From: an uncultured Verrucomicrobiae bacterium
GTDB taxonomy: Bacteria > Verrucomicrobiota > Verrucomicrobiia > Chthoniobacterales > UBA10450
Assembly: GCA_963726745.1 (NCBI GenBank)
Contig: CAVSDR010000006.1
Span: 640,001-704,000 of the forward strand
DNA length: 64,000 nucleotides
Direction: 5' to 3'
The translations under genes were made by a program, and so were the position numbers. Shown here in pieces: positions 706 to 64,000 of the stretch (position 1 is its first letter; every line of letters starts with the position of its first letter). The notes below the pieces were generated by a model. That model did no database searches. It was not told where the DNA came from and was given only the letters and a program-made list of their open reading frames with translations.

Positions 706-1208
706 GCCTCGGCGAGCTGCAGCTCGGGCGTTTCCTCGAGGAGCTCGTTCAGCGGCGGCCATTGCACCGAGCTGTCCATGTCGCGGAAAGCGTGGAGATA
801 AATCGCGACCGTCTCCGCCGGATATTTAGCCAGCAACTTGTCGATCGCGGCCTTGAGTTTCTCCTTCGAAGGACACGGACCAAGGTCCTCGACGGTGCCA
901 TCGGGATCGTGCGCGATCTCCAGGGCATCGAGGAAATCGCAAAGCATCTGCTTGTTCGCGCCCAAGAGCCAGGCCTGCACCAGGTGGCTTGCGAGAGTGT
1001 CGCTCAACGGCCGACTCAGCGCCTGCTTCATCCAGGGAAACCGCTCGTTAGGCGGTTTCCGCTCCACGAAAACGCCACGCAGGTTGCGCTGGTTCGCCAG
1101 GCCTTGGATCGCGGCCTTGTAGACCGGCTTCTCCTCCTTTTGCAGGAAGAGAAAAATTTCCGCGGCCACCGCGGGCGACATTTTCTGGAACAGTTCGTGG
1201 GCTCTCAT
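690..1208 (-). CDS. conserved hypothetical protein
   Basis: 172 aa ORF with natural helical protein composition and high-GC codon usage. Confidence 0.7.
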   Translation of the reverse strand: MRAHELFQKMSPAVAAEIFLFLQKEEKPVYKAAIQGLANQRNLRGVFVERKPPNERFPWMKQALSRPLSDTLASHLVQAWLLGANKQMLCDFLDALEIAHDPDGTVEDLGPCPSKEKLKAAIDKLLAKYPAETVAIYLHAFRDMDSSVQWPPLNELLEETPELQLAEAQAAK

Positions 1209-1215
1209 GCAGGGC

Positions 1216-1965
1216 TCATGTTTCGCCCAAGGGATCGGCCGTCGCCAGCGCCAATGGCTGATCGGCGACGATTTTTCCCGCGAAGGTGTTGGTCATGTAA
1301 GTCAGGATCAAAACCCAGAAAGTGAGCGCGAGCGCAAAGAGCGGATACTGCAGCGGGAGCGGGAGCGCGTAGATGATCGCCATCAACGGACCCCAAACCG
1401 CCCAGGTGGCTACAAGCGTGGGGACGATCTTGTCGCGGTAGTGCGTCCAGGTAAGCGCGCGCCGCAGCGAGCGCCAGGAGAAGCCTTCGTTTTTCCACTC
1501 GTAGACCAGCACCTCCGCGGGCGCGGCCAGGAAGGGATTGTAGCCAAACTGGTCGACGCAAACTTTTGCCACCAAGACGGGGAAGGTGACCGCGGTGCCG
1601 AACCAGATCGCGTTATAGCGATACATCAGGTCGACCAGGATGCCGTCAACCGCCCAAGTGGGAATGGTGAAGGCGAGGTTGCGCAGATTTTGCCGGCTCA
1701 TTTTTCCCCGTTGGAAAAAGCCGATGACGAAAAGTTCCGGCAGGAGTGCGCCGGCGATCACGGCCGAGCCGACGACGAAAACCAGCCCGTGCGCCTCGCG
1801 ATAGGCAGCAAGATGTTCGAGCGCGCGATGGACCGGCGGCGCAAAATAGTAGCCCACCAAGAGCGCGAGCATGAACGCCTGGAGGATGAAGCCGGGAAGC
1901 GCGTTCGCCTTGGCCGCTTCCCAACCAAGGGCGAACGGATGCGGGCGGCGGGCGCGGGCGGACAT
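1216..1965 (-). CDS. membrane protein, Mpv17/PMP22-like
   Basis: Several TM segments; KVCVDQFGYNPF...PTLVATWAVWGPLMAIIYALPLPLQ resembles the Mpv17/PMP22 signature; ATG at 1965. Confidence 0.6.
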   Translation of the reverse strand: MSARARRPHPFALGWEAAKANALPGFILQAFMLALLVGYYFAPPVHRALEHLAAYREAHGLVFVVGSAVIAGALLPELFVIGFFQRGKMSRQNLRNLAFTIPTWAVDGILVDLMYRYNAIWFGTAVTFPVLVAKVCVDQFGYNPFLAAPAEVLVYEWKNEGFSWRSLRRALTWTHYRDKIVPTLVATWAVWGPLMAIIYALPLPLQYPLFALALTFWVLILTYMTNTFAGKIVADQPLALATADPLGET

Positions 1966-2053
1966 GCGGCCAAAGCTGTCGCCGGCGCGGCGCGCGGCAA
2001 GTGCTTTCCGGCGCGCGGTTGGACGCGCGGGCTGCGCGCCCTTACTTTGCCGC

Positions 2054-3142
2054 GTGCAACCCGCGGCCAAACCTTCGATTTACTCCTGCTCGCTGGAGGA
2101 ATTGCGCGCGCACCTGGCGGAGCACGGGCAGCCGGCCTACCGCGCGAAACAGATCACCGATTGGCTCTACAAAAAACGCGTCGCGTCCTACGACGCGATG
2201 ACCGATCTGCCGCAGGCGTTGCGCACTTACCTCGCAGAGCACTTTGAGCTGCGTCCACTCGAACTGGTGCGCCTTCTCGGTTCCAAGGATACGACGCAGA
2301 AATTTCTTTTTCGGCTGCGCGACGAAAACCTGATCGAGGCGGTCCTGATTCCCGCGTCGCCCGCGCTCTACGGGCAAACCTCGGATCGCCGGACGATCTG
2401 CGTTTCCAGCCAGGTCGGCTGCGCTTACGGCTGCAAGTTTTGCGCGAGCGGACTCGATGGCTGGACGCGGAACCTCGATGCGGGCGAGATCGTGCAGCAG
2501 TTGCTCGCGGTCGAGGCCGAGAGCGGTGAGCGGATCGACAACGTCGTCTTCATGGGGATGGGCGAGCCGCTGGCTAATATGCAGAATCTTCTGCGCGCGA
2601 TCGCGATCATCAATCAGCCCTGGGGCATGGAGATTGGCGCGCGCCACATCACCGTCTCGACCAGCGGGCTGGCGCCGCAGATTCGGCAATTGGCTAACGA
2701 GACCACGCAGTTCCGCCTGGCGCTTTCGCTCCATGGCGCGACCGATGAAGTCCGCAGCCAGATCATGCCGGTGAACCGGAAGTATCCGCTCGAAGTGCTG
2801 CTCGAGGCTTGCGACGAATATGTCGCGAAGAAGCGGCGGATGCTCTTCGAATACATTCTGATCAACGACATCAACGACACCGAGGAACAGGCGCACGCGC
2901 TCGCGAAAATCGCGCGGAGGTTGTCGGCTAAAATCAATCTCATCCCCTACAATACGGTCGAGGGACTGGAGTGGACCCGGCCGCCACGCGCGCGGCAGGA
3001 GCGCTTCGCCGCGATCCTGCGCGAGCAGGGCGTGGTCGCGACGCTGCGCCGCGAGAAAGGGCACGACATTGCCGCAGCCTGCGGCCAACTGCGCCTGCAA
3101 ACCAAGCGCCGCGAAACGGAGACACGCGCAGCCGCAAGCTAG
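2054..3142 (+). CDS. rlmN: 23S rRNA (A2503-C2)/tRNA methyltransferase RlmN
   Basis: Radical SAM motif CVSSQVGCAYGCKFC, MGMGEPL, STSG, DIAAACGQL; probable GTG start at 2054. Confidence 0.95.
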   Translation: MQPAAKPSIYSCSLEELRAHLAEHGQPAYRAKQITDWLYKKRVASYDAMTDLPQALRTYLAEHFELRPLELVRLLGSKDTTQKFLFRLRDENLIEAVLIPASPALYGQTSDRRTICVSSQVGCAYGCKFCASGLDGWTRNLDAGEIVQQLLAVEAESGERIDNVVFMGMGEPLANMQNLLRAIAIINQPWGMEIGARHITVSTSGLAPQIRQLANETTQFRLALSLHGATDEVRSQIMPVNRKYPLEVLLEACDEYVAKKRRMLFEYILINDINDTEEQAHALAKIARRLSAKINLIPYNTVEGLEWTRPPRARQERFAAILREQGVVATLRREKGHDIAAACGQLRLQTKRRETETRAAAS

Positions 3143-5695: not shown

Positions 5696-6472
5696 ATGCT
5701 CTCTCAAGAGGACCTGAAATGGATTGCCGCCACGTCGACGGAGTTGAACTCGATGTTGCAACAGATCTCGCGCTACGCGGACCTGGCTCGCACCCAGCGC
5801 CCTGAGGGCAATTATCTCGAGATGATGGGCGATCGAGTCGATCGCGCCACTCGCACCACCCAGGCCCTGTTCGACCGCGTCACCTCCGCCATCCTCGAAA
5901 GTAAAGTCGCCCGCCCAGCGACGGATGGGAAAAGCTTCCCGCCGTTCTCGGTGCTCCCGGCGCCGAGCAGCTCCGCGAGCCTCCCAGTGCGCGCGCCGAG
6001 CACCCCTCCTGCGCCGGTCGCGTCCCGTCCGCCCGCGCGGCCGGTCCACACGCCGCCTACGCCGGCGCTTCCCATCCGGAATGCGACGGGCGCGCGCGAA
6101 CTGCTGCTCTTGATCGATGACGATGCCGACATGGCCGAGGTGGCCACGCAGGTCCTGACCGCCGAAGGCTACAAGGTAATCGTCGCGCGCGACGGAGTGG
6201 AGGCGCTGGAAATCTACCGGCACGCTGGCGGCGACATCCGGCTGGTCATTCTCGATTTCTTCCTTCCCGTGCTCGATGGCGACGCCGTCTTCGACGAACT
6301 GCAAACGCTCAACCCGAACATCGCCGTCGTCTTGAGCAGCGGCTTTGCCGAGCAGACGAAGCTCAGCGCCATGCTCGCGCGCGGCTTGCGCGGCTTCATC
6401 CCAAAGCCCTACACGCGCGCGAAATTGCTCGAGCAGGTCCGCTCGATTCTCGACGCCAGCCGCGCGGCCTAA
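5696..6472 (+). CDS. response regulator receiver protein with N-terminal HisKA-like helix and Pro-rich linker
   Basis: C-terminal REC domain: LLLIDDD, LVILDFFLP, SSG, FIPKPY. Confidence 0.85.
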   Translation: MLSQEDLKWIAATSTELNSMLQQISRYADLARTQRPEGNYLEMMGDRVDRATRTTQALFDRVTSAILESKVARPATDGKSFPPFSVLPAPSSSASLPVRAPSTPPAPVASRPPARPVHTPPTPALPIRNATGARELLLLIDDDADMAEVATQVLTAEGYKVIVARDGVEALEIYRHAGGDIRLVILDFFLPVLDGDAVFDELQTLNPNIAVVLSSGFAEQTKLSAMLARGLRGFIPKPYTRAKLLEQVRSILDASRAA

Positions 6473-6606
6473 CGAGCGCAAGAACGCGCGCGCTTCGGGT
6501 TTCCGCGGAATTGCCTAACGAGACATCTCGTCGGCTATTTTTTTTCGCCGCCGCTTGATTGCTTCCGCTCGCTGGCACCGATTTAGCTTCTGCAGGGAGC
6601 ACGGCC

Positions 6607-7686
6607 ATGGCGCGCATTGACTCCTTCTTCAAATTGATGTCCGAGCAAAAAGCCTCGGATCTTCACCTCTCGACCAACAACCCGCCGATGCTGCGGATCA
6701 ACGGCGACCTCGTGCGGGTCGACTATCCGCCGCTGCAAAACGACGACCTCAAGGCGATGGTCTACGAGATCGCGCCCGAGGGGAAAATCAAAACCTTCGA
6801 GGAGCAATCCGACGTCGACTTCGGCTACGAAGTCCCCGGTGTCGCCCGTTACCGCGCAAATTTCTTCCAACAGAAATACGGCATCTCCGCGGTCTTTCGT
6901 TTGATTCCCTCGACCGTGCTCACGGTGGAGCAGCTCAACCTGCCGCCGGTGCTGAAGAAATTTCCGCTGCTCAAGAAAGGCCTCGTGCTCGTTACCGGCC
7001 CGACCGGTTCCGGCAAGTCGACCACGCTCGCGGCGATGATGGATTACGCGAACATGCAGCGCAACGACCACATCATCACGGTCGAGGACCCGATCGAGTT
7101 TGTGCACCGGAGCCAGAACTGCCTGGTGCAGCATCGCGAAGTGGGCGTGCATACGCGTTCCTTTTCCGCCGCTCTGCGCGGCGCGCTCCGCGAGGATCCG
7201 GATATTCTTCTCGTGGGCGAAATGCGCGATCTGGAGACGATCGAGCTCGCGCTGACCGCAGCCGCCACGGGTCACCTTGTGTTCGGCACGCTCCACACTT
7301 CGAGCGCGGCCAAAGCGGTCGACCGCATCATCGACGTCTTTCCCACGAGCCAGCAAAACCAGATCCGCGCGACCCTCGCGGAATCGCTCAAGGGCGTGAT
7401 CGCGCAAAACCTTTTCAAGCGCATCGACAAGCCCGGCCGCGTGGCCGCGCTGGAGATTTTAGTCGTCGACATGGCGATCGCGAACCTCGTGCGCGAAGCC
7501 AAGACGCACCAAATCCCCGGCATGATCCAGGTCGGCAAGAAGAAGGGCAACCAGCCGCTGGACGACGCAATCATGGAGCACCTGCGCCACCAGCGCGTCT
7601 CCGCGGAGGAAGCCTACGAGAAGTGCATCGACCGGAAAAAATTCCGCCCTTTCCTGAAAGAGCCGCCCATGGACGGGGAGGAATAA
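6607..7686 (+). CDS. pilT: type IV pilus retraction ATPase PilT
   Basis: ASDLHL, GPTGSGKSTT, EDPIEFVH, ALREDPDILLVGEMRD, GTLHT; ATG at 6607. Confidence 0.93.
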   Translation: MARIDSFFKLMSEQKASDLHLSTNNPPMLRINGDLVRVDYPPLQNDDLKAMVYEIAPEGKIKTFEEQSDVDFGYEVPGVARYRANFFQQKYGISAVFRLIPSTVLTVEQLNLPPVLKKFPLLKKGLVLVTGPTGSGKSTTLAAMMDYANMQRNDHIITVEDPIEFVHRSQNCLVQHREVGVHTRSFSAALRGALREDPDILLVGEMRDLETIELALTAAATGHLVFGTLHTSSAAKAVDRIIDVFPTSQQNQIRATLAESLKGVIAQNLFKRIDKPGRVAALEILVVDMAIANLVREAKTHQIPGMIQVGKKKGNQPLDDAIMEHLRHQRVSAEEAYEKCIDRKKFRPFLKEPPMDGEE

Positions 7687-7699
7687 GCGGAGCACGACC

Positions 7700-8868
7700 A
7701 TGAGAATCCCAGAATTAAACAACATTCTCCTGGCGATGCTGCAGACCTATGACGGCATCTCCGACCTCAATTTTTCCGTGGGCCACCCGTTGCAGGTGGA
7801 AGATTTCGGCGAGCTGAAACCGGTCTACATCGACCCGCCGATCGAGGCGCTCACGCCCTACCAGACGGAGCAGATCGCGCTCACCCTGATGCAGGGAAAT
7901 CGCCGGCTGATGTACGATTACCTCACCGGCGGCTCCTGCGACAGCAGCTACTCGTTAGGCGACGACGCCCGCTTCCGCGTGAATATTTTCCGCCAGCAGG
8001 GCCATTTTTCGATCGTCCTGCGGAAGCTCGAGGGCTCCGTGCCTTCGATCGAAGTCCTGGGCCTTTCCAGCATCTTTAAGGAAATCGCGCGCGAAAAAAC
8101 GGGGCTGGTCCTGGTCACCGGCGCCACTGGCAGCGGGAAGACGACCACGCTGGCGGCAATTCTTAACGAGATCAACCAGACCCAGCCGGTGCACGTGATC
8201 ACGCTGGAAGACCCGATCGAATACGTCCACCCGAAGCTCAAGGCGACCTTCAACCAGCGCGAACTGGGACACGATTTCAACAACTACCCAAATGGTCTCC
8301 GTGCTGCCCTGCGCCAGGCGCCCAAGGTCATCCTCGTGGGCGAAATGCGCGACCGCGCGACCGTGGAAGTGGCGCTCATGGCCGCGGAAACCGGTCACCT
8401 CGTCCTCAGCACCCTGCACACGGTCGATGCCGGGCAATCGATCAACCGTATCCTCGGCCTCTTCTCGTTAGGCGAGGAGCAACAGCTCCGCATCCGTCTT
8501 TCCGATAGCCTGCGCTACATCGTCAGCCAGCGCCTGGCGCCGAAGATCGGCGGCGGCCGGCAATTGCTCACCGAGGTCATGGGGCACAACCTCCGGACCA
8601 AGGAAGCGATCGCCCTCGGCGAAGGCGAGCACCGGAGCTTTTACGAGATCATCGAGAGCAGCTCGACCTACGGATGGATGACGTTCGACCAGTGCATCCT
8701 TCGCGCTTACGAAGAACGACTCACATCACCGAGGAGACCGCGCGCCTCTTTGCTTCCCGCAAGGGCCGCATCTCCCGCGGGATCGACTTGGTGCAGAAAG
8801 CCCGCGGGGTCGATAACGACCTCGATTCCGGCCTGCGCCTCGACGTGCCGGTCAACGCCTTCCGCTAA
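7700..8868 (+). CDS. PilT/PilU family ATPase (frameshift near 8720)
   Basis: GATGSGKTT, EDPIE, ALRQAPKVILVGEMRD, STLHT; the natural C-terminus (HITEETARLFASRK...) continues in ORF 8674..8868. Confidence 0.88.
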
Positions 8869-8877
8869 TCCACTCCC

Positions 8878-9342
8878 ATGGCTAACGAATCCGAATCTTT
8901 CTTCGACGCCGGCGATAACACCGCGCTCGTCTGCGTGGATCATCAGCAATACCAGAAGCTGGTCGTGCCGCAGCTGATCGACATCAACTACAAGGTCCAC
9001 CTCGGACTCTTCGAGGAAGACGTCCTCGTGAAGCTGCAGACCTACCACTACAACGTGGTCGTCGTTTACGAGAACTTCAAAGGCTCCACCCTGCCGACCA
9101 ATCCCATCCTGCAGCACATGGTGAAACGCTCCGGCTCGCAGCGGCGCCAGCACTTCGTGGTGCTCCTGAGCCATCGCTTCCCGACGAACGACGCCATGAG
9201 CGCCTTCGTGCAAAGCGTCGACCAGATCATCAACATCGGCGACCTTGCGCAGTTCAAGCCCGTCCTGCGCCGCGGCGTGGCTCAATACCGCGAGCTTTAC
9301 CAGCCCTTCCAGGAGACGCTCAAGGCCGTGCAGACGCTCTAG
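8878..9342 (+). CDS. hypothetical protein, degenerate receiver-like fold, PilT-associated
   Basis: 154 aa ORF directly after the ATPases; alternating beta/alpha pattern (ALVCVD...RRQHFVVLLS...SVDQIIN). Confidence 0.75.
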   Translation: MANESESFFDAGDNTALVCVDHQQYQKLVVPQLIDINYKVHLGLFEEDVLVKLQTYHYNVVVVYENFKGSTLPTNPILQHMVKRSGSQRRQHFVVLLSHRFPTNDAMSAFVQSVDQIINIGDLAQFKPVLRRGVAQYRELYQPFQETLKAVQTL

Positions 9343-10785: not shown

Positions 10786-12374
10786 GCGTCGCCGCGCCTT
10801 CGGCGCACTCGAAGATCCTGATCCTTGATTTCGGATCGCAGTACACCCAGGTCATCGCGCGGCGCATTCGCGAGTGCCAGGTCTACTCGGAAATCGTCCG
10901 CTACGACATTCCCGCAACCGAAGTGGCCGCCTCGCGTCCGAACGGGATCGTCCTCTCCGGCGGGCCGGCGAGCGTCTACGATGAAAAGGCGCCGCAGCTC
11001 GACCCGCAGATCTTCTCGTTAGGCATTCCGGTGCTGGGGATTTGCTACGGGATGCAGTTGATGGCGCGGCACCTTGGCGGCGAGGTGGAATACAGCCGGC
11101 AACGCGAGTACGGCGCCGGCTTGCTGCACGTCGCGCCCGGTTCGCAGCTCTTCAAGGGCGTGGGCGAACAGCTCGATATCTGGAACAGCCATGGCGACAA
11201 GGTGACGAAGCTCCCGGAAGGCTTCCGCGCCGCGGGTCACACGGATAACTCACCGCTGGCTGCGATCGAGAACGCCGACGCGCGGCTCTACGGCCTGCAG
11301 TTTCATCCCGAGGTCGGCCACACCCCGCGCGGGAAAGAGATCATCCAGAATTTTGTCTACGATATCTGCCGCTGCGCGATGGATTGGACCATGGGCTCGT
11401 TCATCGACGAAGCCTGTGCGCGCGTGCGCCAGCAGGTGGGCGATCAGAAGGTCGTGCTCGGACTGAGCGGTGGCGTCGATTCCTCGGTCGTAGCGGCCTT
11501 GCTGCACAAGGCAATTGGCGACCAGTTAACCTGCATCTTCGTGAACAACGGCCTCCTGCGCGCGCGCGAAGACGAGGTGGTGAAACGCATCTTCGGCGAG
11601 AACTTTCACCTCAAGCTCAAGTACGTCGACGCGTCCGAACGCTTCCTCTCCAAGCTCAAGGGCGTGACCGACCCCGAGCAGAAGCGGAAGATTATTGGCA
11701 ACGAATTCATCGACGTTTTCCAGCACGCGACCGAGGAGTTGCTCGAGGAAGACCAGGCGAACGCGTCGGCCCACGGCGGCTATCATTTCCTCGCGCAAGG
11801 CACGCTCTACCCGGACGTGATCGAGAGCGTTTCGATCAGCGGCAATCCGGCGCACCTGATCAAGAGTCATCACAATGTCGGCGGCCTGCCGGAGAAGATG
11901 CACTTCGAGCTGGTGGAACCGGTGCGGCAACTCTTCAAGGACGAGGTGCGCCAAGCCGGCTTGCAACTCGGGCTACCGAAGGAAGTGGTCTATCGCCAGC
12001 CATTCCCCGGGCCCGGCCTGGCGGTGCGCATCCTCGGCGAGGTCACGCCCGAGCGGCTGCGCATTCTCCGCGAAGCGGATACGATCGTAACCAGCGAGAT
12101 GGAAGCGGCCGACTGGTATTACCGCGTCTGGCAATCCTTCGCGGTCCTCCTGCCAGTCCGTTCCGTGGGGGTGATGGGCGACCAGCGAACCTACGAAGAC
12201 ACGATCGCGCTGCGGATTGTTGAAAGTCAGGACGGGATGACGGCCGATTGGGTGCGCGTGCCCTACGAGCTGCTCGCGCGCATCTCGACCCGCATCATCA
12301 ACGAGGTCAAAGGCGTCAATCGCGTCTGCTACGATATCTCGAGCAAGCCACCGAGCACGATCGAGTGGGAGTGA
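10782..12374 (+). CDS. guaA: GMP synthase (glutamine-hydrolysing)
   Basis: [48 protein letters not shown]. Confidence 0.98.
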
Positions 12375-13982: not shown

Positions 13983-13985
13983 AGC

Positions 13986-14657
13986 CTAACGATTCCCCAT
14001 CTCGCCCGTGGTCACGCGCGCGGTGGCGTAGAACGCCTGCGGGTAATCCGGCTGGATGGTCAGGACGGCGTTCAAAGGCTTGCTCGTGTCCTTCGGCTGC
14101 ACCTTGATCTTGAACTCGCCGGCGGCCGAGCCTTTCTCCACCTCTGCCTGGAAATCGGCGCTGGACGATTTGACGTCTAATTTCGTGATCGCCACATCCT
14201 TGGCCGCCTTCACCGTGATCATTTTTGGCTTGGGCGCCTCGCCCTGCTGCCAAAAGACGAACGCCGGCTGAATCTCCACCGGCTGCGCGACCGTCGCCTT
14301 GAGCACGAGATTAATCAGCGGCGCGTTCGGATCGTCCGTCTCGACTGCGATCATCTTCTGCTGGAGCCCGGTGCGGCCGCCGATCTTAAGCGTCGCGGTG
14401 AGGTTGCCGCCTTCGCCCGGAGCGACATCCTTTTTCTCGATCGTGGCCACGGTGCAACCGCAGGAGGTGCGCACATTGGTGATCTTGATCGGCTTGTCGG
14501 TTTTGTTCGTGTAATGGAACTGCGCCACGGTCTCGGCATCGCCCGCTTTCGGATGGAGTTCGACCTCGGTTTTCTCCCAGGTGAGCTGCGCCTGCGTGCT
14601 GCCCAAAGCGCCGGCTAAAACGAGAGCAACGAGGGAAGCGCGGCGGCGAAGATGCAT
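13986..14657 (-). CDS. DUF1573 domain secreted protein
   Basis: Signal peptide; FHYTN...ITNVRTSCGCT...VAPGE. Confidence 0.85.
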   Translation of the reverse strand: MHLRRRASLVALVLAGALGSTQAQLTWEKTEVELHPKAGDAETVAQFHYTNKTDKPIKITNVRTSCGCTVATIEKKDVAPGEGGNLTATLKIGGRTGLQQKMIAVETDDPNAPLINLVLKATVAQPVEIQPAFVFWQQGEAPKPKMITVKAAKDVAITKLDVKSSSADFQAEVEKGSAAGEFKIKVQPKDTSKPLNAVLTIQPDYPQAFYATARVTTGEMGNR

Positions 14658-14715: not shown

Positions 14716-15603
14716 TTAGACAGCAACATGAGCACGCACATAATCCGCCACGGCCTCGCGCCAGCTGCGCGGGGTGGTCTTCGTTAGGCGAGTGAACCGG
14801 TCAGTCGAAAGCACGGTGTAAATCGGCCGGCGGGCGACGAAGTTTTTCATCTCCGCGAGGGTAATGGCGTCGACTCGATGCGCGCGCAGCGCGACTCCCG
14901 CCTGCCGGCAGCAATCGAGCGCCCATTGCCCGTATTCCTGCCAGCTGCATGCGCCCGCATTGGCCAGGTGCACCACTCCGCCGGGGAGCGCGCGGTCGAA
15001 GAACGGCCGCAGCATCGCGGCGATGTCCTGCGTGTAGGTGGGCGCGGAAATTTTATCCGCGACCGCGGCGACGCGTTCCTCCTTTAGCGCCTGGCCGATG
15101 ACCCAATCGATGAAGCTCGGCCGGTCCGGGCCGAAAACCCAGGAGACGCGCGCGACCAGATGGTCGGGGTCGACCGCGAGCACGCGCCGTTCGCCCTCGA
15201 GTTTGCTGGCGCCGTAAACGCTGATCGGCTCGGCGGCGTCGTCCTCGGTGTAGGGCGCGCGTTTCTCGCCATCGAAAACGTAATCGGTGCTGACGTGCAA
15301 AAGGCGCGCGCCCTTCGCGGAACAGATTTCCGCCAGCACGCGCGGCGCCTCGGCATTGAGCGCGAAGGCTTCCTCGGGCTCGGTCTCGCAACGGTCAACC
15401 AGGGTTTGCGCCGCGGTGTTGATCAGGAGATCGAACGGCAACGGCTCAAGCGTGCGGCGCAGCTGCGCGAGGTCGCCAAGATCCAGTTCCGCGCGGCGAA
15501 ACGGGACGACGGTGAATTCGGAAGCGTAGGCGCGCGCGAGCGCCATCCCGAGCCGGCCGCCGGCGCCGACCAAAGCGACGGTTAATTTTTCTCCCGCGGA
15601 CAT
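14716..15603 (-). CDS. rfbD: dTDP-4-dehydrorhamnose reductase
   Basis: GAGGRLG, STDYVFDG, YGASKLEGE, SAPT, ARRP. Confidence 0.92.
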   Translation of the reverse strand: MSAGEKLTVALVGAGGRLGMALARAYASEFTVVPFRRAELDLGDLAQLRRTLEPLPFDLLINTAAQTLVDRCETEPEEAFALNAEAPRVLAEICSAKGARLLHVSTDYVFDGEKRAPYTEDDAAEPISVYGASKLEGERRVLAVDPDHLVARVSWVFGPDRPSFIDWVIGQALKEERVAAVADKISAPTYTQDIAAMLRPFFDRALPGGVVHLANAGACSWQEYGQWALDCCRQAGVALRAHRVDAITLAEMKNFVARRPIYTVLSTDRFTRLTKTTPRSWREAVADYVRAHVAV

Positions 15604-15635
15604 GGGGGAGACTCTAGCGCGGGCGCCGACGGCGG

Positions 15636-39907: not shown

Positions 39908-39913
39908 GTTTCG

Positions 39914-41274: not shown

Positions 41275-42033
41275 ATGACGCACCTGCTCGTCCTTTGCGC
41301 TTTCTCGATGCTCGCCGGTTTCGTCGATGCCGCAGTCGGCGGCGGCGGCCTGATCCAACTTCCGGCTGCGCTCATCCTGCTGCCTGGCGTGCCCATCCCC
41401 ACGATTCTCGGGACAAATAAATTCGCCGCGCTCTGCGGGACCAGCTTTGCCCTCCAGCGTTACGCGCGGCATGTGCGGATCGATTGGCACCTCGTCGGGC
41501 CCACGGCCTTGGTCGCCTTTCTCTGCGCCTTCGGCGGAGCGCGCGCGGTCAACTTGCTGGACCCAAAGCTCCTCCGCCCGGTCATTCTCCTGCTGCTCGT
41601 GGTCGTGGCGATTTACGTCTTGCTGGCTAAAAATCTCGGCCTGGTCCACGCGCCGAAGCACACCCCGCGGAAGGCGCTGGGCCTCGGTCTCGTGGTCGGC
41701 GCGGCGCTCGGCTTTTACGACGGCTTTTTCGGCCCGGGCATGGGCAGCTTCCTCATCTTCGCCTTCGTCGGCTTGTTTGGCTTCGACTTCCTTTCCGCTT
41801 CCGCTTCGGCCAAGGCGGTCAACTGGTCGACTAATTTCGCCTCCTTGATCTACTTCGGCCTAACGAATCAAATCCTCTTCAAGATCGGCCTGGCCATGGC
41901 CGCGAGTAATGTCGTCGGCGCTCTCCTCGGTTCGCACCTCGCGATCGCCAAGGGCAGCCGCTTCGTCCGTGGCCTTTTCCTGGTGGTCGTCGGCGCGCTC
42001 ATCTTGAAGCTCACGCAGATGATGCTGTGGTAG
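41275..42033 (+). CDS. TSUP (TauE/SafE) family transporter
   Basis: AGFVDAAVGGGGLIQLP, LGTNK, GFYDGFFGPG.GSF. Confidence 0.9.
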   Translation: MTHLLVLCAFSMLAGFVDAAVGGGGLIQLPAALILLPGVPIPTILGTNKFAALCGTSFALQRYARHVRIDWHLVGPTALVAFLCAFGGARAVNLLDPKLLRPVILLLLVVVAIYVLLAKNLGLVHAPKHTPRKALGLGLVVGAALGFYDGFFGPGMGSFLIFAFVGLFGFDFLSASASAKAVNWSTNFASLIYFGLTNQILFKIGLAMAASNVVGALLGSHLAIAKGSRFVRGLFLVVVGALILKLTQMMLW

Positions 42034-42702: not shown

Positions 42703-42984
42703 ATGAATCACCTGCAAAAGCTCGGCCTCGCTTCCTTTTTCTTCTTCGGGCTCGGCGTTTTTGCCGGCGCCTTGCGCGTCGTCGCCGGTTGGAATCCGCA
42801 AACGCTCGTGGCCGTGGCCCTCGTCTGCTACGCAGTCGCGCTGGTCTTCGCGCTGGTGGCGTTCATGAAGTCGCGCCGCGGCCAAAGCCTCGACGGCACC
42901 ACGAAATTCCTCGCGCGCGCCCCGCTCGCGATCGTGACCCTCGGCGTGCTCGTCTTTTTCCTGCGCGCGATGGTCGGGGTCTAA
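42703..42984 (+). CDS. small membrane protein
   Basis: 93 aa with three hydrophobic helices. Confidence 0.65.
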   Translation: MNHLQKLGLASFFFFGLGVFAGALRVVAGWNPQTLVAVALVCYAVALVFALVAFMKSRRGQSLDGTTKFLARAPLAIVTLGVLVFFLRAMVGV

Positions 42985-44876: not shown

Positions 44877-45330
44877 ATGAAACTTCGCTTCCTCCTTCCG
44901 CTGGTTTTAGCCAGCACTCTCTTGGCGCAAAGCGCGCCCGACGCCGCCGAGCTGACGAAATTGCTGAAAGATTTCCTGGCCGGCGCCTCGAAGAATGATC
45001 CCGCAATGCACGAGCGTTTCTGGGCCGATGACGTGATCTACACCGGCTCCGGCGGACGCCGCCGCGGCAAGGCAGAGATCATGCAGGACGTCCGCGCGCC
45101 CGCGAAAAAAGAAGCCGGAGCCCGAGCCGACCTACACCGCCGAGGACATCCGCATCCAGCAATATGGCGACACTGCGATCGTCGCCTTCCGGCTCGTTTC
45201 CACCGCGGAAAAGGAGGGCAAACCGGAGATCAAAAATTACCTCAACACCGGCACTTTCCTGAAACGCAACGGCGAGTGGCGCGTGATCGCGTGGCAGGCC
45301 ACGGTGAAACCGGACGCGCCCGCGCCGTAG
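44877..45330 (+). CDS. secreted NTF2-like (DUF4440) protein (frameshift near 45120)
   Basis: Signal peptide, FWADDVIYTG; continues in another frame as YTAEDIRIQQYGDTAIV...FLKRNGEWRVIAWQ to TAG at 45330. Confidence 0.75.
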
Positions 45331-45331
45331 C

Positions 45332-47734
<2,403 letters not shown>

Positions 47735-57303: not shown

Positions 57304-57334
57304 CTGCACCTCGTCCGGACTTCCGCATATCGTT

Positions 57335-58942: not shown

Positions 58943-58969
58943 GCGCTCGTCCGTCCGAAAAGTTTCTCG

Positions 58970-59008
58970 AGAACGCCGCGTGGTTTTCCACGCGGCGTTT
59001 CTTTTTTT
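58970..59008 (+). terminator. intrinsic terminator
   Basis: AACGCCGCGTGG-TTTT-CCACGCGGCGTT followed by a T-tract. Confidence 0.85.
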
Positions 59009-59028
59009 AGGCTATAACTTCGCAGCTC

Positions 59029-59877: not shown

Positions 59878-59941
59878 CCCCCGCGCTTTTTCCGTTCGAC
59901 TCCCCCGGCGCTCCGCGCGTAAAAGCTTAGACCTCCAAGCT

Positions 59942-60715: not shown

Positions 60716-60755
60716 TCTCGCTGTCTAAACCTCTCGCCCTTTCCGGAGCTTTGCC

Positions 60756-62270
60756 GTGAATCAACCGCGCCTGACTTTTTGGCAGATCTGGAATATGAGC
60801 TTCGGCTTCCTGGGCATCCAGTTCGGCTTCGGCTTGCAGCTCGCGAACATGAGCGCGATCTACGCCAAGCTCGGCGCGGAGCCGGATAAGATTCCCATGC
60901 TCTGGCTGGCCGGCCCGATGACCGGCCTGCTCGTCCAGCCGATCATCGGCTCGATGAGCGATCGCACCTGGAATCGCCTCGGCCGTCGGCGCCCCTATTT
61001 CCTCACCGGCGCAATCCTTTCCAGCATCGCGCTTTTCTTTATGCCCGATGCACCGCTTCTCTGGGTCGCCGCCGGCATGCTCTGGATCCTCGACGCCTCG
61101 ATCAATGTAAGCATGGAACCTTTCCGCGCGTTCGTGGCCGATAAGCTCAACCTCGAGCAGCGCACCGCCGGCTTCGTCATGCAAAGTTTCTTCATCGGCG
61201 TCGGCGCCGCGGTCGCGAATGCCCTGCCCTCGATCTTCAAATACTTCGGCGTCGCCGGTCAGGCGGCCAATGGTGTCCCGCTCACCGTGCAGTATTCCTT
61301 CAAGCTCGGCGCGGCAGTCTTCTTTCTCGCGGTCCTCTGGACCGTGCTGACCACGAAGGAAACGCCGCCGGCCGACATGGAAGCCTTCGAGCGCGAACGT
61401 CGGGAGCGAATACCTTTCCGCCTCCAGCCAGTCTTCCTTGCTGTCGGCGTCGCTGCGGGTGCCACTCTCGGCGCTTCGCGCGGCGCGCTCGTGGAGCACG
61501 AGCTCACGCTCTGGCACATCCTCGCCGGCGGCGCCATCGGCGGCGCGATTGCCGCCGTTCTCTCGAAGCCCGAGGTCGCGGTCGCCATTCGCGAAATGCC
61601 CAAGACCATGCGTCAGCTCGCGGTCGTGCAGTTCTTCACCTGGCTGGGGCTTTTCTGCATGTGGATGTTCTTTAGCCTCGCGACCGCGCAACAGATCTTC
61701 GGGGCGACTGATCCGAAGTCCGCGCGCTTTGACGAAGGCACCGAGTTTGGCGGCCAAACCTTTGCCATCTATTCCATTGTCTGTTTTGCCGTCGCTTTCA
61801 TCCTGCCGAAGTTCGCCCGCCTAACGAGTCGCAAAACCGTCCACACCGTCGCCCTGACCTGCGGCGCGCTCAGCTTGCTGTCTACTTTCTTCATCCACGA
61901 TCCCACGTTGTGGCGCTGCACCATGATCGGCATCGGCATCGCCTGGGCCTCCATCCTCTCGATGCCCTACGCGATCCTCTCCGGCGCGCTCCCCTCGAAT
62001 CGCATGGGCGTTTACATGGGCATCTTCAATTTCTTCATCGTCATCCCCGAGATCCTGGCCTCCCTCGCCCTGCAGCCGGTAGTCAAACAGCTCTTCAATA
62101 ACGACCCCGTAAAGGTCGTCATGCTCGGCGGTGGCTCGTTGCTGCTCGCAGCCATCGCCACCCAGTTCGTCTTCGAACCGGCACACCAGGCCGATGCCCA
62201 GCTCCCGGAGATCGCCCGCGATGAAGCGGTCAGCCTTTCCGCCGTCCCGCCGGAAAGTCCGCTTCCGTGA
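60756..62270 (+). CDS. MFS maltose/sucrose-type transporter (MalT/SLC45-like)
   Basis: [58 protein letters not shown]. Confidence 0.92.
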
Positions 62271-64000
62271 AGTCGGTCCAGCGCATGGCCGCGCTCGCCC
62301 TTCTAAGCTCGGCTATCTCCCTGCAGGGAGCAGGAGACGGGGCAATCCTGCGCTTTGCGCGCACCGAGAACGCACTCGTATTGCGTTATGGCCTAACGAA
62401 ACCAAGCACCGATCGCCAGACGGTCTTCCTGGCCCTCGGCGACCGCTCCCCGGGCGGGTCGGCAATTCTCCCTTTCGGCGAGAACGCCGAGGGCTCGACC
62501 GTTTTTCTCCCCTTTCGCGCACAGCAGCTTTTCCTCCTGCGACCAGGAAAAAATAGACAGCGCCTTTGGCAAGACTGGCAGTGGGGTCCCACGGCGGACC
62601 TGCCACCGGCCATCCAGGTCGAGTTCAGCGAGAGTGAAGTCAGCGTGACCCTGCCTAACGAGTGGCTGACTGAACGCCCGCAGCTCCAGGTCGCCGCCTA
62701 CGCCAAGGATTTTGGCAGCCAATCCTGGGGCTGGTTTTTCGGCGCGAGCGATCCCACGGTCGCTCCCGGCTTGGGCGACAAATACCTCCCGCGCTTCCTC
62801 GAGCTCGATCTCTCTACACCGGAGAAAGTGTCGGCAAAATCTCGCGCACGCCTCGAGGCCGGCGAACGCCTCCGCATTTACCAGCTCTTCGTGCGACTCT
62901 TCGGCAACACCAACGAGACCCGCCGGGAAAATGGCACCCTGGCCGAGAATGGCGTCGGCAAGTTTGCCGACCTCAACGACGCCGCCCTTGCTTCGCTGCG
63001 CGCTCATGGGCTGCAGCCACCTCTGGCTCACGGGCGTGCTGCAGCAGGCCACCGGCACTGATTATGCCAGCATCGGCCAGCCCGCGGACGACCCCGATCT
63101 CCTCAAAGGCGTCGCCGGCAGCCCCTACGCGATTCGCGATTACTTCGACGTCTCGCCCGATTACGCCACCGACCCCGCGAAGCGAATCGAGGAATTTCGC
63201 GCGCTCCTTGAGCGCATCCACGCTCGCGGGCTCAAGGCGTTGATCGACTTCGTCCCAAATCACGTCGCGCGCAGCTATGCCTCCGACGTCCGGCCGGAGC
63301 TGGACTTCGGCCGGCAGGATGACCGCTCAAAGTTCTTCGACCCAGGGAACAATTTCTTCTACCTCGCCCCGGGCGCCGGCGGCCCGCCGTTGCGCCTGCC
63401 AACGTTGCAGAAAGGGAAGGTCGTTAGTCCTACCTGTCAGCTTCCGGGTTTCGACTGCGATGGCCTCTTTCCCCCGGAGACCGAGCATGGTCGCGTGACC
63501 GGCAACAACCGCGTCACCTGGACGCCGGAGCTTGGGGATTGGTATGAGACCGTGAAACTTAATTACGGCTACGATTTCACCGGCAAAGCCTCCGCCCCGA
63601 AGTTGTATCCCCATGCGGGCGCCGCCGGGGAAACCGCTGCCCGATACCTGGAAGAAGATGGACCAGGTCCTGGCCTATTGGCAGTCGTTAGGCGTGGATG
63701 GTTTCCGCTGCGACATGGCGCACATGGAGCCGCCGGAGTTCTGGCATTGGGCGATCGCGCAGGCTCGCGCGCGCAATCCGGAAGTGGTCTTCGTGGCCGA
63801 AGCTTACGACAACGATCCGGCGAAAGTTCCCGGGAGCGACCCGGTGGTCGCGCAGCTGCACCACGGAAAATCGAACGTGATGTTCGACTTGCTCAATGCC
63901 GGCTTCGACGCGGTCTACGATGACCCGAGCTACAAGGCGGTGAAGAAGATCTACGAGGGCGGCGGCTGGGCCAACGACCTCGATCGCGCCCGCAGCGACG
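62267..64000 (+). CDS. GH13 alpha-amylase family protein with N-terminal extension, 3' truncated (frameshifts near 63005 and 63625)
   Basis: IYQLFVRLFGN, GSPYAIRDY, IDFVPNH, WYETVKLNYG, then GVDGFRCDMAHM and VFVAEAY in a third frame. Confidence 0.88.

What the first reader, a model, noticed from the sequence alone, without database searches (positions are those of the whole stretch)
1045..63693. Highly over-represented non-palindromic 9-mer GCCTAACGA: candidate new DNA uptake sequence or genome-wide binding motif
Seen: 23 exact copies by manual count (14 plus, 9 minus; positions in the feature list), usually extended to GCCTAACGAG. Seven more one-mismatch copies keep the CTAACGA core (2692, 8880, 33716, 34038, 42979, 45920, 63421). 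A rough base-composition estimate at about 65% GC gives fewer than 1 expected copy in the window. Inside genes it is read in at least four frames: S-L-G (tcg TTA ggc in the PilU-like gene twice, guaA, aat, rfbB, the kinase twice, GH13), L-T (CTA acg in rfbD, PHP, TSUP, SLC13, MFS, GH13), P-N-E and V-R (gtt AGG). It forces TTA/CTA/AGG codons that are otherwise rare here, so it is maintained at the DNA level, not the protein level. Established: Neisseria DUS (GCCGTCTGAA) and Pasteurellaceae USS (AAGTGCGGT) are non-palindromic 9-10-mers dispersed on both strands and within core genes; Chi and KOPS are strand-polarised; cyanobacterial HIP1 is palindromic. Inference: a DUS-like self-recognition tag for natural transformation, or a binding site for a nucleoid, repair or methylation protein. 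I know of no such motif described for Verrucomicrobiota.
Basis: partly seen in the sequence, partly recalled or inferred. Interest (0 to 1): 0.92.

Follow-up and report, generated by a model that had tools for sequence, protein, structure and literature searches.

The report
Family-wide hyper-abundant DNA word
An uncultured family of soil Verrucomicrobiota writes the DNA word GCCTAACGA(G) more than a thousand times into its genes, stop codons and spacers, much as Neisseria and Haemophilus write their DNA-uptake tags, and the same letters form the crossover core of this family's integron sites.

Summary
The window has 23 exact copies against 0.26 expected. The 3.41-Mb genome has 1312 (681 +, 631 -), and GCCTAACGAG is its commonest 10-mer.

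The word is imposed at DNA level. It occurs 935 times inside coding sequence against about 21 after synonymous shuffling. It encodes 423 of 745 S-L-G tripeptides through a rare TTA codon. It shows no strand or replichore polarity.

It is enriched in most of 36 genera of one Chthoniobacterales family and is at background in 15 sister families. Of 74 sites aligned with a 73%-identical relative, 34 are shared, against 9.8% for any 9-mer. It is missing from polysaccharide islands with atypical codon usage.

New here: the core CTAACGAG is the attI/attC crossover core of the family's own integrons. Word density nevertheless does not follow integrase presence.

Best reading (0.45): a DUS/USS-like self tag amplified through natural transformation. 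It is unproven. No ComP orthologue was found, and the competence genes do not discriminate between lineages. This genome also has a second, lineage-specific word. The scan has noted similar hyper-abundant words on other DNA before.

The parts
1045..1053 (-). Exact word, sense strand of ORF 690-1208 (-), read P-N-D/E
   Evidence: frame by arithmetic
6467..6475 (+). Exact word; its TAA is the stop codon of the response-regulator ORF 5696-6472
6513..6521 (+). Exact word in the spacer before the PilT-like gene
7952..7960 (-). Exact word, antisense in the PilU-like T2SSE ATPase ORF 7700-8977, read S-L-G; shared with G013 only among 4 relatives aligned
8465..8473 (-). Exact word, antisense in the same ORF, read S-L-G; shared at the orthologous place by G013, G154, G078; G002 keeps S-L-G with other codons
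10141..10149 (+). Exact word, antisense in the Leu/Phe-tRNA protein transferase ORF 9922-10590 (-), read S-L-G
11016..11024 (-). Exact word, antisense in guaA 10782-12374, read S-L-G; the same conserved S-L-G is written with the word in 26 of 81 relatives
13984..13992 (+). Exact word; its complement TAG is the stop codon of the DUF1573 ORF 13986-14741 (-)
14781..14789 (-). Exact word in a spacer
30054..30062 (+). Exact word in a spacer; first copy after a 15-kb gap (14790-30053) that holds large secreted-protein genes
34512..34520 (+). Exact word in a spacer
36435..36443 (-). Exact word, sense in the PHP_C ORF 36313-37101 (-), read L-T
39911..39919 (-). Exact word; its TAA is the stop codon of ORF 39914-40912 (-)
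40676..40684 (+). Exact word, antisense in ORF 39914-40912 (-), read S-L-G
41858..41866 (+). Exact word, sense in the TauE ORF 40939-42033, read L-T
43856..43864 (-). Exact word, sense in the CitMHS transporter ORF 42981-44810 (-), read L-T
45330..45338 (+). Exact word in a spacer
45755..45763 (+). Exact word; its TAA is the stop codon of ORF 45371-45760
46926..46934 (+). Exact word, antisense in the Ser/Thr kinase ORF 46041-47783 (-), read S-L-G; followed by a 15-kb gap (46935-61818) with giant surface-protein genes
61819..61827 (+). Exact word, sense in the MFS ORF 60756-62270, read L-T
62391..62399 (+). Exact word, sense in ORF 62267-63061, read L-T
62653..62661 (+). Exact word, sense in ORF 62267-63061, read P-N-D/E
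63685..63693 (-). Exact word; context not classified (no complete ORF called before the window ends)
2692..2700 (+). One-mismatch copy GGCTAACGA (core kept)
8880..8888 (+). One-mismatch copy GGCTAACGA (core kept)
33716..33724 (-). One-mismatch copy TCCTAACGA (core kept)
34038..34046 (-). One-mismatch copy ACCTAACGA (core kept)
42979..42987 (+). One-mismatch copy GTCTAACGA (core kept)
45920..45928 (+). One-mismatch copy GTCTAACGA (core kept)
63421..63429 (-). One-mismatch copy GACTAACGA (core kept)
6559..8977 (+). Two adjacent T2SSE (PilT/PilU-like) ATPase genes, possible pilus-retraction motors of a DNA-uptake apparatus; the association with the word is inferred only
   Evidence: PF00437, E 6.7e-46 and 5.6e-44

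Best explanation
GCCTAACGA(G) is a lineage-specific 'self' word. The strict core is C-T-A-A-C, then a soft G, then A; the two 5' letters and the tenth letter are soft. Point substitutions write it into coding DNA in all four stop-free frames, into stop codons and into spacers. This happens across an uncultured soil family of Chthoniobacterales whose nearest named relatives are MAGs labelled Chthoniobacterales or Candidatus Udaeobacter. I think it most likely works like the DUS of Neisseriaceae and the USS of Pasteurellaceae. In that model, cells that take up DNA prefer, at uptake or at a later step of transformation, fragments that carry the word. Alleles with the word are then over-transmitted by recombination (molecular drive), and the word accumulates wherever the proteins tolerate it. 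Because the 8-base core is also the crossover core of the family's integron attI and attC sites, every integron cassette of the family carries the tag. Shown: the enrichment, its DNA-level nature, symmetry, taxonomic range, conservation, absence from atypical islands, and identity with the integron core. Inferred: that transformation is the driver, and which protein reads the word.
For: (1) Abundance is of DUS/USS order. There are 1312 copies, 0.385 per kb. It is the second commonest 9-mer, and its extended form is the commonest 10-mer. It is 122x a masked order-3 Markov expectation.
(2) It is a DNA-level constraint. There are 935 copies in CDS against about 21 after synonymous shuffling. TCGTTAGGC encodes 423 of 745 S-L-G, although TTA is 2.9% of Leu codons. 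S-L-G is 1.6x and P-N-E 2.4x over-represented in the proteome. In total 206 sites lie on 371 P-N-D/E tripeptides.
(3) It is strand-symmetric (681/631). All 50-kb windows hold mixed orientations, with no correlation with GC skew or gene strand.
(4) It is position-indifferent. Density is 0.46-0.48 per kb in tandem, divergent and convergent spacers, and 0.32 per kb in CDS. In 138 cases the word supplies a stop codon.
(5) The range is family-wide. Genus medians exceed 100 per Mb in 9 of 36 genera and are at least 20 per Mb in 29 of 36. Sixteen genomes of 15 other families in the order hold 0-6 copies, except G028, whose 14 copies include the integron sites inspected.
(6) It is maintained. 34 of 74 aligned sites are shared with G154, where flanks are 71% identical, against 9.8% for any 9-mer. 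Only 1 of 34 is shared with the word-poor congener G002.
(7) The logo is the same, including soft +9/+10/+13 positions, in G154, whose sampled 400 kb has 56% GC against 64% in G000.
(8) The largest deserts (35 and 24 kb) are low-GC, atypical-codon polysaccharide islands.
(9) In G000, close pairs are depleted: 11 within 100 bp against 49 expected, and 33 within 200 bp against 97. Even spacing is reported for USS (passage in PMC1939737).
(10) Uptake and processing genes are present: ComEC, DprA, a ComEA-like ORF, 3 secretins, 16 prepilin-type ORFs, PilT/PilU and PilM.
(11) The literature links transformation with integron cassette recruitment (abstract of PMC12614218). It also now proposes the cyanobacterial HIP1 as an uptake sequence (abstract of PMC13756078).
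Against: No uptake or transformation data exist for this uncultured family.
The competence genes do not discriminate. ComEC was found in 40 of 41 relatives, including families without the word. PilM matched in 120 of 121 family genomes, and 3 of the 14 high-quality genomes lacking a strong hit still have over 500 copies.
The ComP_DUS model reaches 21.9 bits against a cut-off of 27.3.
Unlike DUS, the word does not form inverted pairs or terminators. Only 5 inverted pairs lie within 100 bp among 1305 gaps.
The deficit of close pairs is weak and not significant in G154: 8 against 12.3, with 111 of 1000 simulations as low. It is absent for the different word of G073.
G000 also carries a second, unrelated hyper-abundant word (about 1140-1235 copies), found otherwise only in G015. 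G073 has yet another word. One uptake receptor does not predict several unrelated words.
Earlier unchecked notes of this scan report similar words in phages and giant viruses, which do not transform.
The identity with the integron core may instead point to an intracellular reader.
Confidence: 0.45

Rival explanations
1. The word is a genome-wide double-stranded binding site for an intracellular protein of the tyrosine-recombinase type (integron integrase or a Xer-like relative), or for another factor that also acts at integron sites. Under this reading it is kept by selection, for example as landing, decoy or organising sites, and not by uptake bias.
For: The 8-base core CTAACGAG (complement CTCGTTAG) is the inner end of one arm of every attC inspected. 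This holds in G000's own integrase-less attC cluster and in the integrons of G016, G018, G021, G023, G005, G013 and G028.
The attI junction 75-250 bases upstream of intI reads TCTCG|TTAGRY in 4 genus-g1 genomes and in 5 of the 7 other family genomes whose intI flank was fetched; one of the 7 showed a different junction and one showed nothing. G063 is among the five, and there the word is at background.
No CTCGTTAG was seen next to intI in 6 other families, though the flanks were short.
Integrase binds attI as double-stranded DNA, and the R'' of attC_aadB is GCCTAAC (passages of PMC12901181).
Integron integrase hits at E <= 1e-60 occur in 73 of 121 family genomes.
Integrases insert cassettes at double-stranded genomic attG sites (passages of 10.1101/2022.09.11.507474).
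Against: G000 has no integron integrase. The best TIGR02249 hit is 80 bits against a cut-off of 265, and tblastn finds only Xer-like genes and a 63-residue fragment. G024, with 1549 copies, has none either.
Among 82 genomes at least 90% complete, word density does not differ by integrase presence. Medians are 45.7 and 28.8 per Mb (Mann-Whitney p 0.21), and 15 of 57 against 6 of 25 reach 100 per Mb.
G028 and G063 have integrase and the same att core but no genome-wide enrichment.
The word prefers GC before the core: 65% of cases, a 6-fold enrichment, with AT in only 7 copies. The attC arms mostly use AT, then AC, GT and GC.
The sites are solitary, with no attC flanks.
71% lie inside genes, where cassette insertion would be destructive.
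Reported attG sites have only a GWT consensus.
Confidence: 0.2
2. The word has no function. It is the by-product of a sequence-biased repair or gene-conversion process, for example very-short-patch-like repair coupled to a methyltransferase, that converts near-cognate sequences into the word.
For: Near-cognate words are depleted. Two-mismatch forms have O/E 0.77, and one-mismatch forms at core positions 0.4-0.9, whereas the exact word is 122x.
Several unrelated, quickly changing words occur in related genomes: a second word only in G000 and G015, and another in G073. This resembles the turnover of methyltransferase specificities.
Biased repair was one classical idea for HIP1 (abstracts of PMC4390886 in the listing, and of PMC5861425).
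Against: The Vsr endonuclease family was not found in G000 (94.7% complete). It was found in only 3 of 24 congeners, with no relation to word density.
A contiguous non-palindromic 9-10-mer is not a typical methyltransferase site (established knowledge, not tested here).
No methylation data could be examined.
Conservation at 46% of orthologous sites fits selection or drive, but does not exclude continuous repair bias.
Confidence: 0.15
3. The word is a Chi-, KOPS- or other replication-oriented polar signal.
For: It is a short over-represented non-palindromic word. That is the only shared feature.
Against: Copies split 681/631 between strands. Every 50-kb window mixes orientations. Spearman rho with GC skew is -0.05 (p 0.71). 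Counts are 166/154 in positive-skew and 511/474 in negative-skew windows. GC skew is weak in this assembly, so replichores are not well defined, but the local mixing alone excludes polarity.
Confidence: 0.02
4. The word reflects a protein motif, codon usage, or a small mobile repeat (REP/MITE).
For: None beyond the recurrence of S-L-G.
Against: Four frames and both orientations are used. Shuffles that keep the proteins give about 21 copies against 935. No sequence conservation extends beyond +13. At orthologous S-L-G sites, relatives use other codons.
Confidence: 0.01

Closest known systems
DNA uptake sequences: DUS of Neisseriaceae (GCCGTCTGAA and dialects) and USS of Pasteurellaceae (AAGTGCGGT types), together DUES
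   Same: Both are short non-palindromic words of 9-12 bases in hundreds to thousands of copies, on both strands and without replichore polarity. Both lie inside genes in several frames, at a cost to codons and amino acids. Both are family-wide, with a strict core and soft outer positions. Both are conserved between species and scarce in imported islands. Published figures: about 1900 DUS in 2.2-2.3 Mb and up to about 6000 in 2.4 Mb; a 3-base core is essential; one species holds two dialects (passages of PMC3630211). 65% of H. influenzae and 35% of N. gonorrhoeae copies lie in ORFs, and even spacing is reported (passages of PMC1939737).
   Different: The phylum differs, and the organisms are uncultured with no known competence. 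Density is lower (0.39 per kb). There are no inverted pairs and no terminator association, whereas about half of DUES lie in terminators (abstract of 10.1101/2025.10.24.684340). No ComP orthologue reaches the Pfam cut-off. Density varies about 30-fold within one genus. The word coincides with an integron core site. Unrelated extra words occur in the same or sister genomes, and they are not one- or two-letter dialects.
HIP1 (GCGATCGC) of cyanobacteria
   Same: HIP1 is a hyper-abundant word, 15- to 300-fold over-represented, conserved within and between ORFs. Its function was debated for decades and it is now proposed to act in transformation or uptake (abstracts of PMC5861425 and PMC13756078; listing of 10.1101/2024.09.10.611283).
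   Different: HIP1 is a palindrome that contains known methyltransferase sites and is phylum-wide. The present word is non-palindromic and family-wide, and no methyltransferase link was found or could be tested.
Integron recombination sites (attC R''/R' boxes RYYYAAC / GTTRRRY; attI R box)
   Same: GCCTAAC fits RYYYAAC, and it is the R'' of attC_aadB (passages of PMC12901181). The word's 8-base core equals the conserved inner end of this family's attC arm and the attI junction.
   Different: The genomic copies are solitary. They lack a partner arm, attC flanks and cassettes, and they arise by substitution within conserved codons. They prefer GC before the core and do not show the R-Y variety of attC. 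Their density is independent of integrase presence.
Chi and KOPS/AIMS polar octamers
   Same: Both are short over-represented non-palindromic words.
   Different: Those are strongly co-oriented with replication. This word is not.

Membership tests
DUS/USS-type uptake sequence (DUES) | Hundreds to thousands of copies, far above composition-based expectation | tested here: met
   1312 copies, 0.385 per kb. Enrichment is 67x against an order-3 Markov model and 122x against a masked one. The extended form is the commonest 10-mer.
DUS/USS-type uptake sequence (DUES) | Both strands equally, no replichore polarity | tested here: met
   681 + and 631 -, with mixed orientation in all 50-kb windows.
DUS/USS-type uptake sequence (DUES) | Imposed on coding sequence at DNA level, in several frames | tested here: met
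   Four frames are used. There are 935 copies against about 21 under synonymous shuffling, and 423 of 745 S-L-G carry the word.
DUS/USS-type uptake sequence (DUES) | Shared by a bacterial family, with a conserved core and variant forms | tested here: met
   Genus medians are at least 20 per Mb in 29 of 36 genera and exceed 100 per Mb in 9. Sixteen genomes of other families hold 0-6 copies apart from G028's 14, which include its attC sites. The tenth letter varies, for example A in the G048 sample. The tallies include unpublished genomes G001, G008, G042, G046 and G053.
DUS/USS-type uptake sequence (DUES) | A cognate receptor (ComP minor pilin in Neisseriaceae) | tested here: not met
   The best PF16732 hit is 21.9 bits against a cut-off of 27.3, over the generic pilin N-terminus. 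Sixteen prepilin-type ORFs exist, but none is tied to the word.
DUS/USS-type uptake sequence (DUES) | Preferential uptake or transformation by DNA carrying the word | not testable with these tools
   No culture and no assay are available.
DUS/USS-type uptake sequence (DUES) | Competence machinery present | tested here: met
   ComEC, DprA, a ComEA-like ORF, secretins, PilT/PilU and PilM are present. This does not discriminate: ComEC is in 40 of 41 relatives.
DUS/USS-type uptake sequence (DUES) | Frequent inverted pairs in transcription terminators | tested here: not met
   Five inverted pairs lie within 100 bp among 1305 gaps. Density is equal in convergent, divergent and tandem spacers.
DUS/USS-type uptake sequence (DUES) | Scarce in recently imported DNA | tested here: met
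   The largest deserts are low-GC, atypical-codon polysaccharide islands. The lowest codon-typicality quintile has 0.27 per kb against 0.38 in the middle quintile.
Integron attC / attI site | Core sequence RYYYAAC / GTTRRRY | tested here: met
   GCCTAAC fits the consensus. The 8-base core is identical to the family's att core.
Integron attC / attI site | Imperfect inverted repeat of two arms 50-150 bases apart, in arrays with cassettes | tested here: not met
   Genome-wide there are 38 R''/R' pairs against 26 in the control. Only one array exists, at G000:C6:742.2-747.2 kb (7 attC sites by alignment). The other roughly 1300 copies are solitary.
Integron attC / attI site | Dependence on an integron integrase | tested here: not met
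   G000 has no IntI. There is no association across 82 high-quality genomes.
Chi / KOPS | Orientation bias with replication direction | tested here: not met
HIP1-like palindromic word | Palindrome containing methyltransferase sites | tested here: not met
   The word is not its own reverse complement, as the sequence shows directly. Methylation itself could not be tested.
REP / MITE | A longer conserved element with a hairpin, in spacers | tested here: not met
   No conservation extends beyond +13. 71% of copies are inside CDS.

The most novel reading that the evidence does not exclude
In this abundant soil family, the specificity of natural transformation (uptake or integration) and the specificity of the integron are written in the same eight letters. 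The family's self-recognition tag would be the attI/attC crossover core. Kin chromosomal DNA and every integron cassette would then be imported by one signal, and the chromosome has filled with that signal by drive. This would couple DNA-uptake specificity to integron cassette traffic, which has not been described.
Probability: 0.2. Interest if true: 0.9.

Novelty: new variant of a known kind. Interest (0 to 1): 0.8.

Why it matters
Experimentally established uptake sequences are known from two families of Proteobacteria. HIP1 of cyanobacteria has only recently been proposed as a third case.

A DUS-like word spanning 36 genera of an uncultured Chthoniobacterales family would imply frequent, kin-biased DNA exchange in a major soil lineage. 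The family's relatives include MAGs labelled Candidatus Udaeobacter. That exchange has never been observed in culture.

The word is also a practical marker. It separates native from imported DNA in these MAGs, flags contamination and mis-binning, and offers a ready test sequence for binding or uptake assays.

The identity with the integron core is unexpected. It makes a specific question testable: do uptake specificity and integron recombination share a signal?

The coexistence of lineage-specific extra words shows that this family generates such words repeatedly. That makes it a good system for finding their cause by comparative genomics.

Tried and rejected
(1) Chi/KOPS polarity is rejected.
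(2) A protein or codon origin is rejected.
(3) A mobile-repeat origin is rejected.
(4) ComEC as a discriminator: it is present in 40 of 41 relatives, so it is uninformative. The word-poor G005 has a split ComEC, but the word-poorest G002 has an intact one.
(5) PilM as a discriminator: 120 of 121 genomes match. Fourteen high-quality genomes have only a weak hit, and three of these have over 500 copies, so no link appears.
(6) Vsr-type repair: not found in G000, and found in 3 of 24 congeners.
(7) Integron integrase as driver: no association.
(8) The idea that the word's drive shaped the att sites is disfavoured. G063 and G082, with background word density, have the same att core.
(9) Even spacing as a general property is strong in G000 but not reproduced in the 400-kb G154 sample or for the G073 word.
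(10) Fixed spacing between the word and the second word: none.
(11) The dialect search in G002 found longer repeats (a repeated coding segment and tandem repeats), not short words.
(12) attC detection beside intI in six other families found nothing comparable. The flanks were 0.7-7 kb and my detector was crude, so absence is not shown. One of seven family flanks (G096) also gave nothing.
(13) First-pass orthologue extraction failed for G024 at pilT/U and for four of five genomes at guaA. It was replaced by BLAST-based analysis and 80 guaA loci.
(14) Literature: the word's letters occur only in primers and unrelated sequences. No paper pairs uptake sequences with Verrucomicrobia in a relevant way. 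No listed paper mentions Udaeobacter together with integrons or competence.
(15) The scan's own notes hold nothing for this genome or for look-alike stretches.
(16) Rfam finds nothing in the G028 clusters.

Full report
**Observation.** The window (G000:C6:640001-704000) holds 23 exact copies of GCCTAACGA at the listed coordinates, 14 on + and 9 on -. Dinucleotide-preserving shuffles give a mean of 0.26 and a maximum of 2. Allowing one mismatch gives 37 matches against 11.9 expected.

The whole assembly has 3,406,779 bases in 7 contigs, GC 0.62-0.64, completeness 94.7%. It carries 1312 copies (681 +, 631 -), at 0.32-0.53 per kb on every contig. The word is the second commonest 9-mer, and GCCTAACGAG (820 copies) is the commonest 10-mer, despite an A+T-rich centre in a 64% G+C genome. 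Against an order-3 Markov model the 9-mer is 67-fold enriched. When the word is masked from the background it is 122-fold enriched.

**Anatomy of the word.** Positions 2-6 (C-T-A-A-C) and position 8 (A) are strict. One-mismatch forms there have O/E 0.4-1.2. Positions 0, 1 and 7 are soft, with O/E 10-19. Two-mismatch forms are depleted, with O/E 0.77.

The tenth letter is G in 62% of copies and almost never T. There are weak preferences for T at +10 and for A/T at +13, and nothing beyond that. Of all CTAA in the genome, 2025 of 6288 are followed by CGA. The two letters before the core are GC in 65% of cases, a 6-fold enrichment, followed by GG, CC, GA, GT and AC.

**DNA level, not protein level.** I used my own gene calls: 2746 ORFs, 85.5% coding, from an iterated codon model.
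- 935 copies lie inside coding sequence.
- 232 lie in spacers.
- 138 contain the stop codon of a called gene: 76 TAA, 44 TAG on the other strand, and 18 that serve two convergent genes at once.
- 7 touch gene ends in other ways.

Inside genes, all four stop-free frames are used: antisense S-L-G 423, sense L-T 217, sense P-N-D/E 206, antisense V-R 93.

Twenty synonymous shuffles that keep every protein and each gene's codon usage give 13.9 + 6.8 copies, against 419 + 516 observed. Codon-order shuffles give about 7. TCGTTAGGC encodes 423 of 745 S-L-G tripeptides, although TTA is 2.9% of leucine codons. S-L-G is 1.6-fold and P-N-E 2.4-fold more frequent than independence predicts, so the word has also shifted protein sequences.

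Spacer density is 0.46-0.48 per kb whether the flanking genes are tandem, divergent or convergent. The word is therefore neither a promoter nor a terminator element. Density is lowest in the least typical and in the most typical codon-usage quintiles (0.27 and 0.26 per kb) and highest in the middle one (0.38).

**No polarity.** Every 50-kb window mixes both orientations. Orientation correlates neither with GC skew (rho -0.05) nor with gene strand (rho 0.06). GC skew is weak in this assembly, but the local mixing alone excludes Chi- or KOPS-like behaviour.

**Spacing and deserts.** In G000, close pairs are rare: 11 within 100 bp against 49 expected, 33 within 200 bp against 97, and 71 within 300 bp against 142. 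No inverted-pair class exists.

This self-avoidance is weak and not significant in a 400-kb sample of G154 (8 against 12.3). It is absent for the word of G073. I treat it as suggestive only.

The largest gaps are C7:60,030-95,400 and C6:413,728-437,792. They have GC 0.59-0.60 and atypical codon usage. They encode glycosyltransferases, DegT aminotransferases, Wzz, ABC transporter parts and an exosortase, so they are surface-polysaccharide islands. The two 15-kb gaps in the window hold large secreted or surface proteins.

**Taxonomic range.** GuaA of the window is 79-89% identical to proteins of MAGs labelled Chthoniobacterales, Verrucomicrobiota, Spartobacteria or Candidatus Udaeobacter.

In 24 congeners the 10-mer ranges from 51 copies (reversed control 40) to 1549 (control 57). 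In 16 genomes of 15 other families of the order it occurs 0-6 times, at or below the control. The exception is G028, with 14 copies.

In 120 further genomes of the family (36 genera), genus medians exceed 100 per Mb in 9 genera. They are 50-100 in 4, 20-49 in 16 and below 20 in 7. The reversed control in the same genomes is roughly 5-15 per Mb. These tallies include the unpublished genomes G001, G008, G042, G046 and G053. No conclusion rests on them alone.

The logo in G154, whose sampled 400 kb has 56% GC, is the same as in G000.

**Maintenance and turnover.** Between G000 and G154 (73% identity over 228 kb aligned), 34 of 74 G000 sites have the word at the same place in G154. Any gap-free 9-mer is identical in 9.8% of cases, and the flanks of these sites are 71% identical.

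With the word-poor congener G002, 1 of 34 sites is shared (control 14.7%). With G073, 3 of 47 are shared.

In pilU, one site is shared by four of five genomes, while G002 keeps S-L-G with other codons. In guaA, a conserved S-L-G is written with the word in 26 of 81 relatives and with ordinary codons in most others. The word is thus made in place by substitution. It is kept where the process is active and is absent where it is not.

**Other words.** De novo k-mer analysis shows that G000 has a second hyper-abundant family, with core GGCTAAW inside an 18-base degenerate logo. It has 1139-1235 copies depending on the definition, and 78% lie in coding sequence in several frames. It is Poisson-spaced and has no fixed distance to the first word. 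Among 24 congeners it is found only in G015.

G073, from another genus where the first word is only 5-fold enriched, has its own strand-symmetric, multi-frame word around GTCGATCT: 70 copies of a 10-mer against 1.9 expected in 288 kb. It is weaker in G048.

G002's top k-mers belong to longer repeats. The family therefore generates such words repeatedly. One is ancient and shared, and the others are young.

**Competence genes.** G000 has the following:
- ComEC, in an 849-residue ORF.
- DprA.
- A small HHH_3 ComEA-like ORF.
- Three secretins.
- 16 prepilin-type ORFs.
- A PilM-like gene next to a secretin.
- In the window, two PilT/PilU-like ATPases.

None of these discriminates. ComEC is found in 40 of 41 relatives, including families without the word. 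PilM matches in 120 of 121 family genomes, with no relation to density. The ComP_DUS model stays below its cut-off.

**The integron connection.** G028's 14 copies include its integron attC sites, in the four clusters I fetched and inspected. The arrays have about 103-nt (102-154 nt) imperfect inverted repeats every 0.4-1 kb at contig ends, beside an intact integron integrase.

G000 itself has an integrase-less cluster of 7 attC sites of 119-124 nt at C6:742.2-747.2 kb, with small ORFs that have no Pfam match.

The attC sites of G000, G016, G018, G021 and G028 share conserved ends. One arm reads RY-CTAAC-GAG and the other reads RY-CTAAC-CA.

The attI junction upstream of intI reads TCTCG|TTAGRY in G023, G018, G021 and G017. 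It reads the same in G063, G051, G082, G140 and G123, from three other genera. G063 and G082 are included, and there the word is at background. Of the seven family flanks fetched, G080 showed a different junction and G096 showed nothing.

R'' = RYYYAAC and R' = GTTRRRY, the R'' GCCTAAC of attC_aadB, and double-stranded binding of attI by the integrase are stated in PMC12901181 (passages). The word's 8-base core is therefore the crossover core of the family's integrons. Because it is present irrespective of word density, it is not a by-product of the process that spreads the word.

Three things argue against simple integrase dependence.
- Integron integrase hits (E <= 1e-60) occur in 73 of 121 family genomes, but are unrelated to word density: medians of 45.7 and 28.8 per Mb among 82 high-quality genomes, p 0.21. 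G000 and G024 lack the gene.
- The genomic copies are solitary and lack attC flanks.
- They prefer GC before the core, whereas attC arms mostly use AT, AC and GT.

**Interpretation.** The best-supported reading is a DUS/USS-like self tag amplified through natural transformation (0.45). All computable hallmarks agree with it. The literature now ties transformation both to integron cassette recruitment (abstract of PMC12614218) and to another hyper-abundant word, HIP1 (abstract of PMC13756078).

The main rivals are an intracellular reader of the tyrosine-recombinase type (0.2) and a function-less repair or conversion bias (0.15). Vsr was not found in G000. The presence of several unrelated words, together with earlier unchecked notes of similar words in viruses, keeps my confidence in uptake below one half.

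**Novelty.** No paper in the held library contains the word as a bacterial element or links uptake sequences to this phylum. One search listed none that ties Udaeobacter to integrons or competence. I file the finding as a new variant of a known kind. It works like a DUES, but in a new phylum, without terminator pairing or ComP, and with an unexplained identity to the integron core.

Noticed in passing
G000 genome-wide (e.g. 427 copies of GCTGGCTAAW); outside the finding's word: G000 has a second hyper-abundant, strand-symmetric word family with core GGCTAAW inside an 18-base degenerate logo. It has about 1140-1235 copies, and 78% are in CDS in several frames. It is Poisson-spaced. Among 24 congeners it is present only in G015 (106 copies).
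   Followed up: partly
G073 (loci L036-L052) and G048 (L053-L063): Another genus of the family has its own hyper-abundant multi-frame word around GTCGATCT: 70 copies of a 10-mer against 1.9 expected in 288 kb. The finding's word is only 5-fold enriched there. G048 shows both words weakly.
   Followed up: partly
G000:C6:742,245-747,190 (about 38 kb beyond the window's end): A cluster of 7 integron attC sites (119-124 nt) sits among small ORFs with no Pfam match and no integron integrase nearby. Some sites are nearly identical to attC sites of G018.
   Followed up: partly
G028 loci L182-L185 (C7, C21, C13, C2 contig ends): A genome of another family has a large chromosomal integron, broken over several contig ends. 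Its attC sites are about 103 nt long (102-154 nt) and share the arm ends of this family's attC sites. They include its copies of the 10-mer inspected here.
   Followed up: partly
Family-wide: Integron integrase is unusually common: 73 of 121 family genomes and 21 of 41 relatives over the cut-off. More than a dozen of the listed matches carry in-frame stops or are split.
   Followed up: no
G000 genome-wide: 138 copies of the word supply a gene's stop codon. Eighteen of them end two convergent genes at once, through overlapping TAA and TAG on opposite strands.
   Followed up: partly
G005:C12:409,293-409,950: ComEC of the word-poor congener G005 is split into two ORFs and may be a pseudogene. The word-poorest G002 has an intact ComEC, so no rule follows.
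   Followed up: no
G000 genome-wide: The tandem hexamer GTTGGC forms the commonest 12-mers (about 145 copies). I did not look at where these arrays lie.
   Followed up: no
G000:C7:60,030-95,400 and C6:413,728-437,792: Two low-GC, atypical-codon surface-polysaccharide islands hold no copy of the word across 35 and 24 kb.
   Followed up: yes
G000:C6:618,852-624,200, and window 6559-8977: dprA (C6:620,352-620,972) and a 452-residue prepilin-type ORF (C6:624,108) lie 16-20 kb upstream of the window's PilT/PilU pair.
   Followed up: no
G002 loci L005-L017: The top k-mers of G002 belong to a repeated coding segment of at least 37 bases and to tandem repeats (units of 7-8 bases). They are not short dispersed words.
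   Followed up: partly
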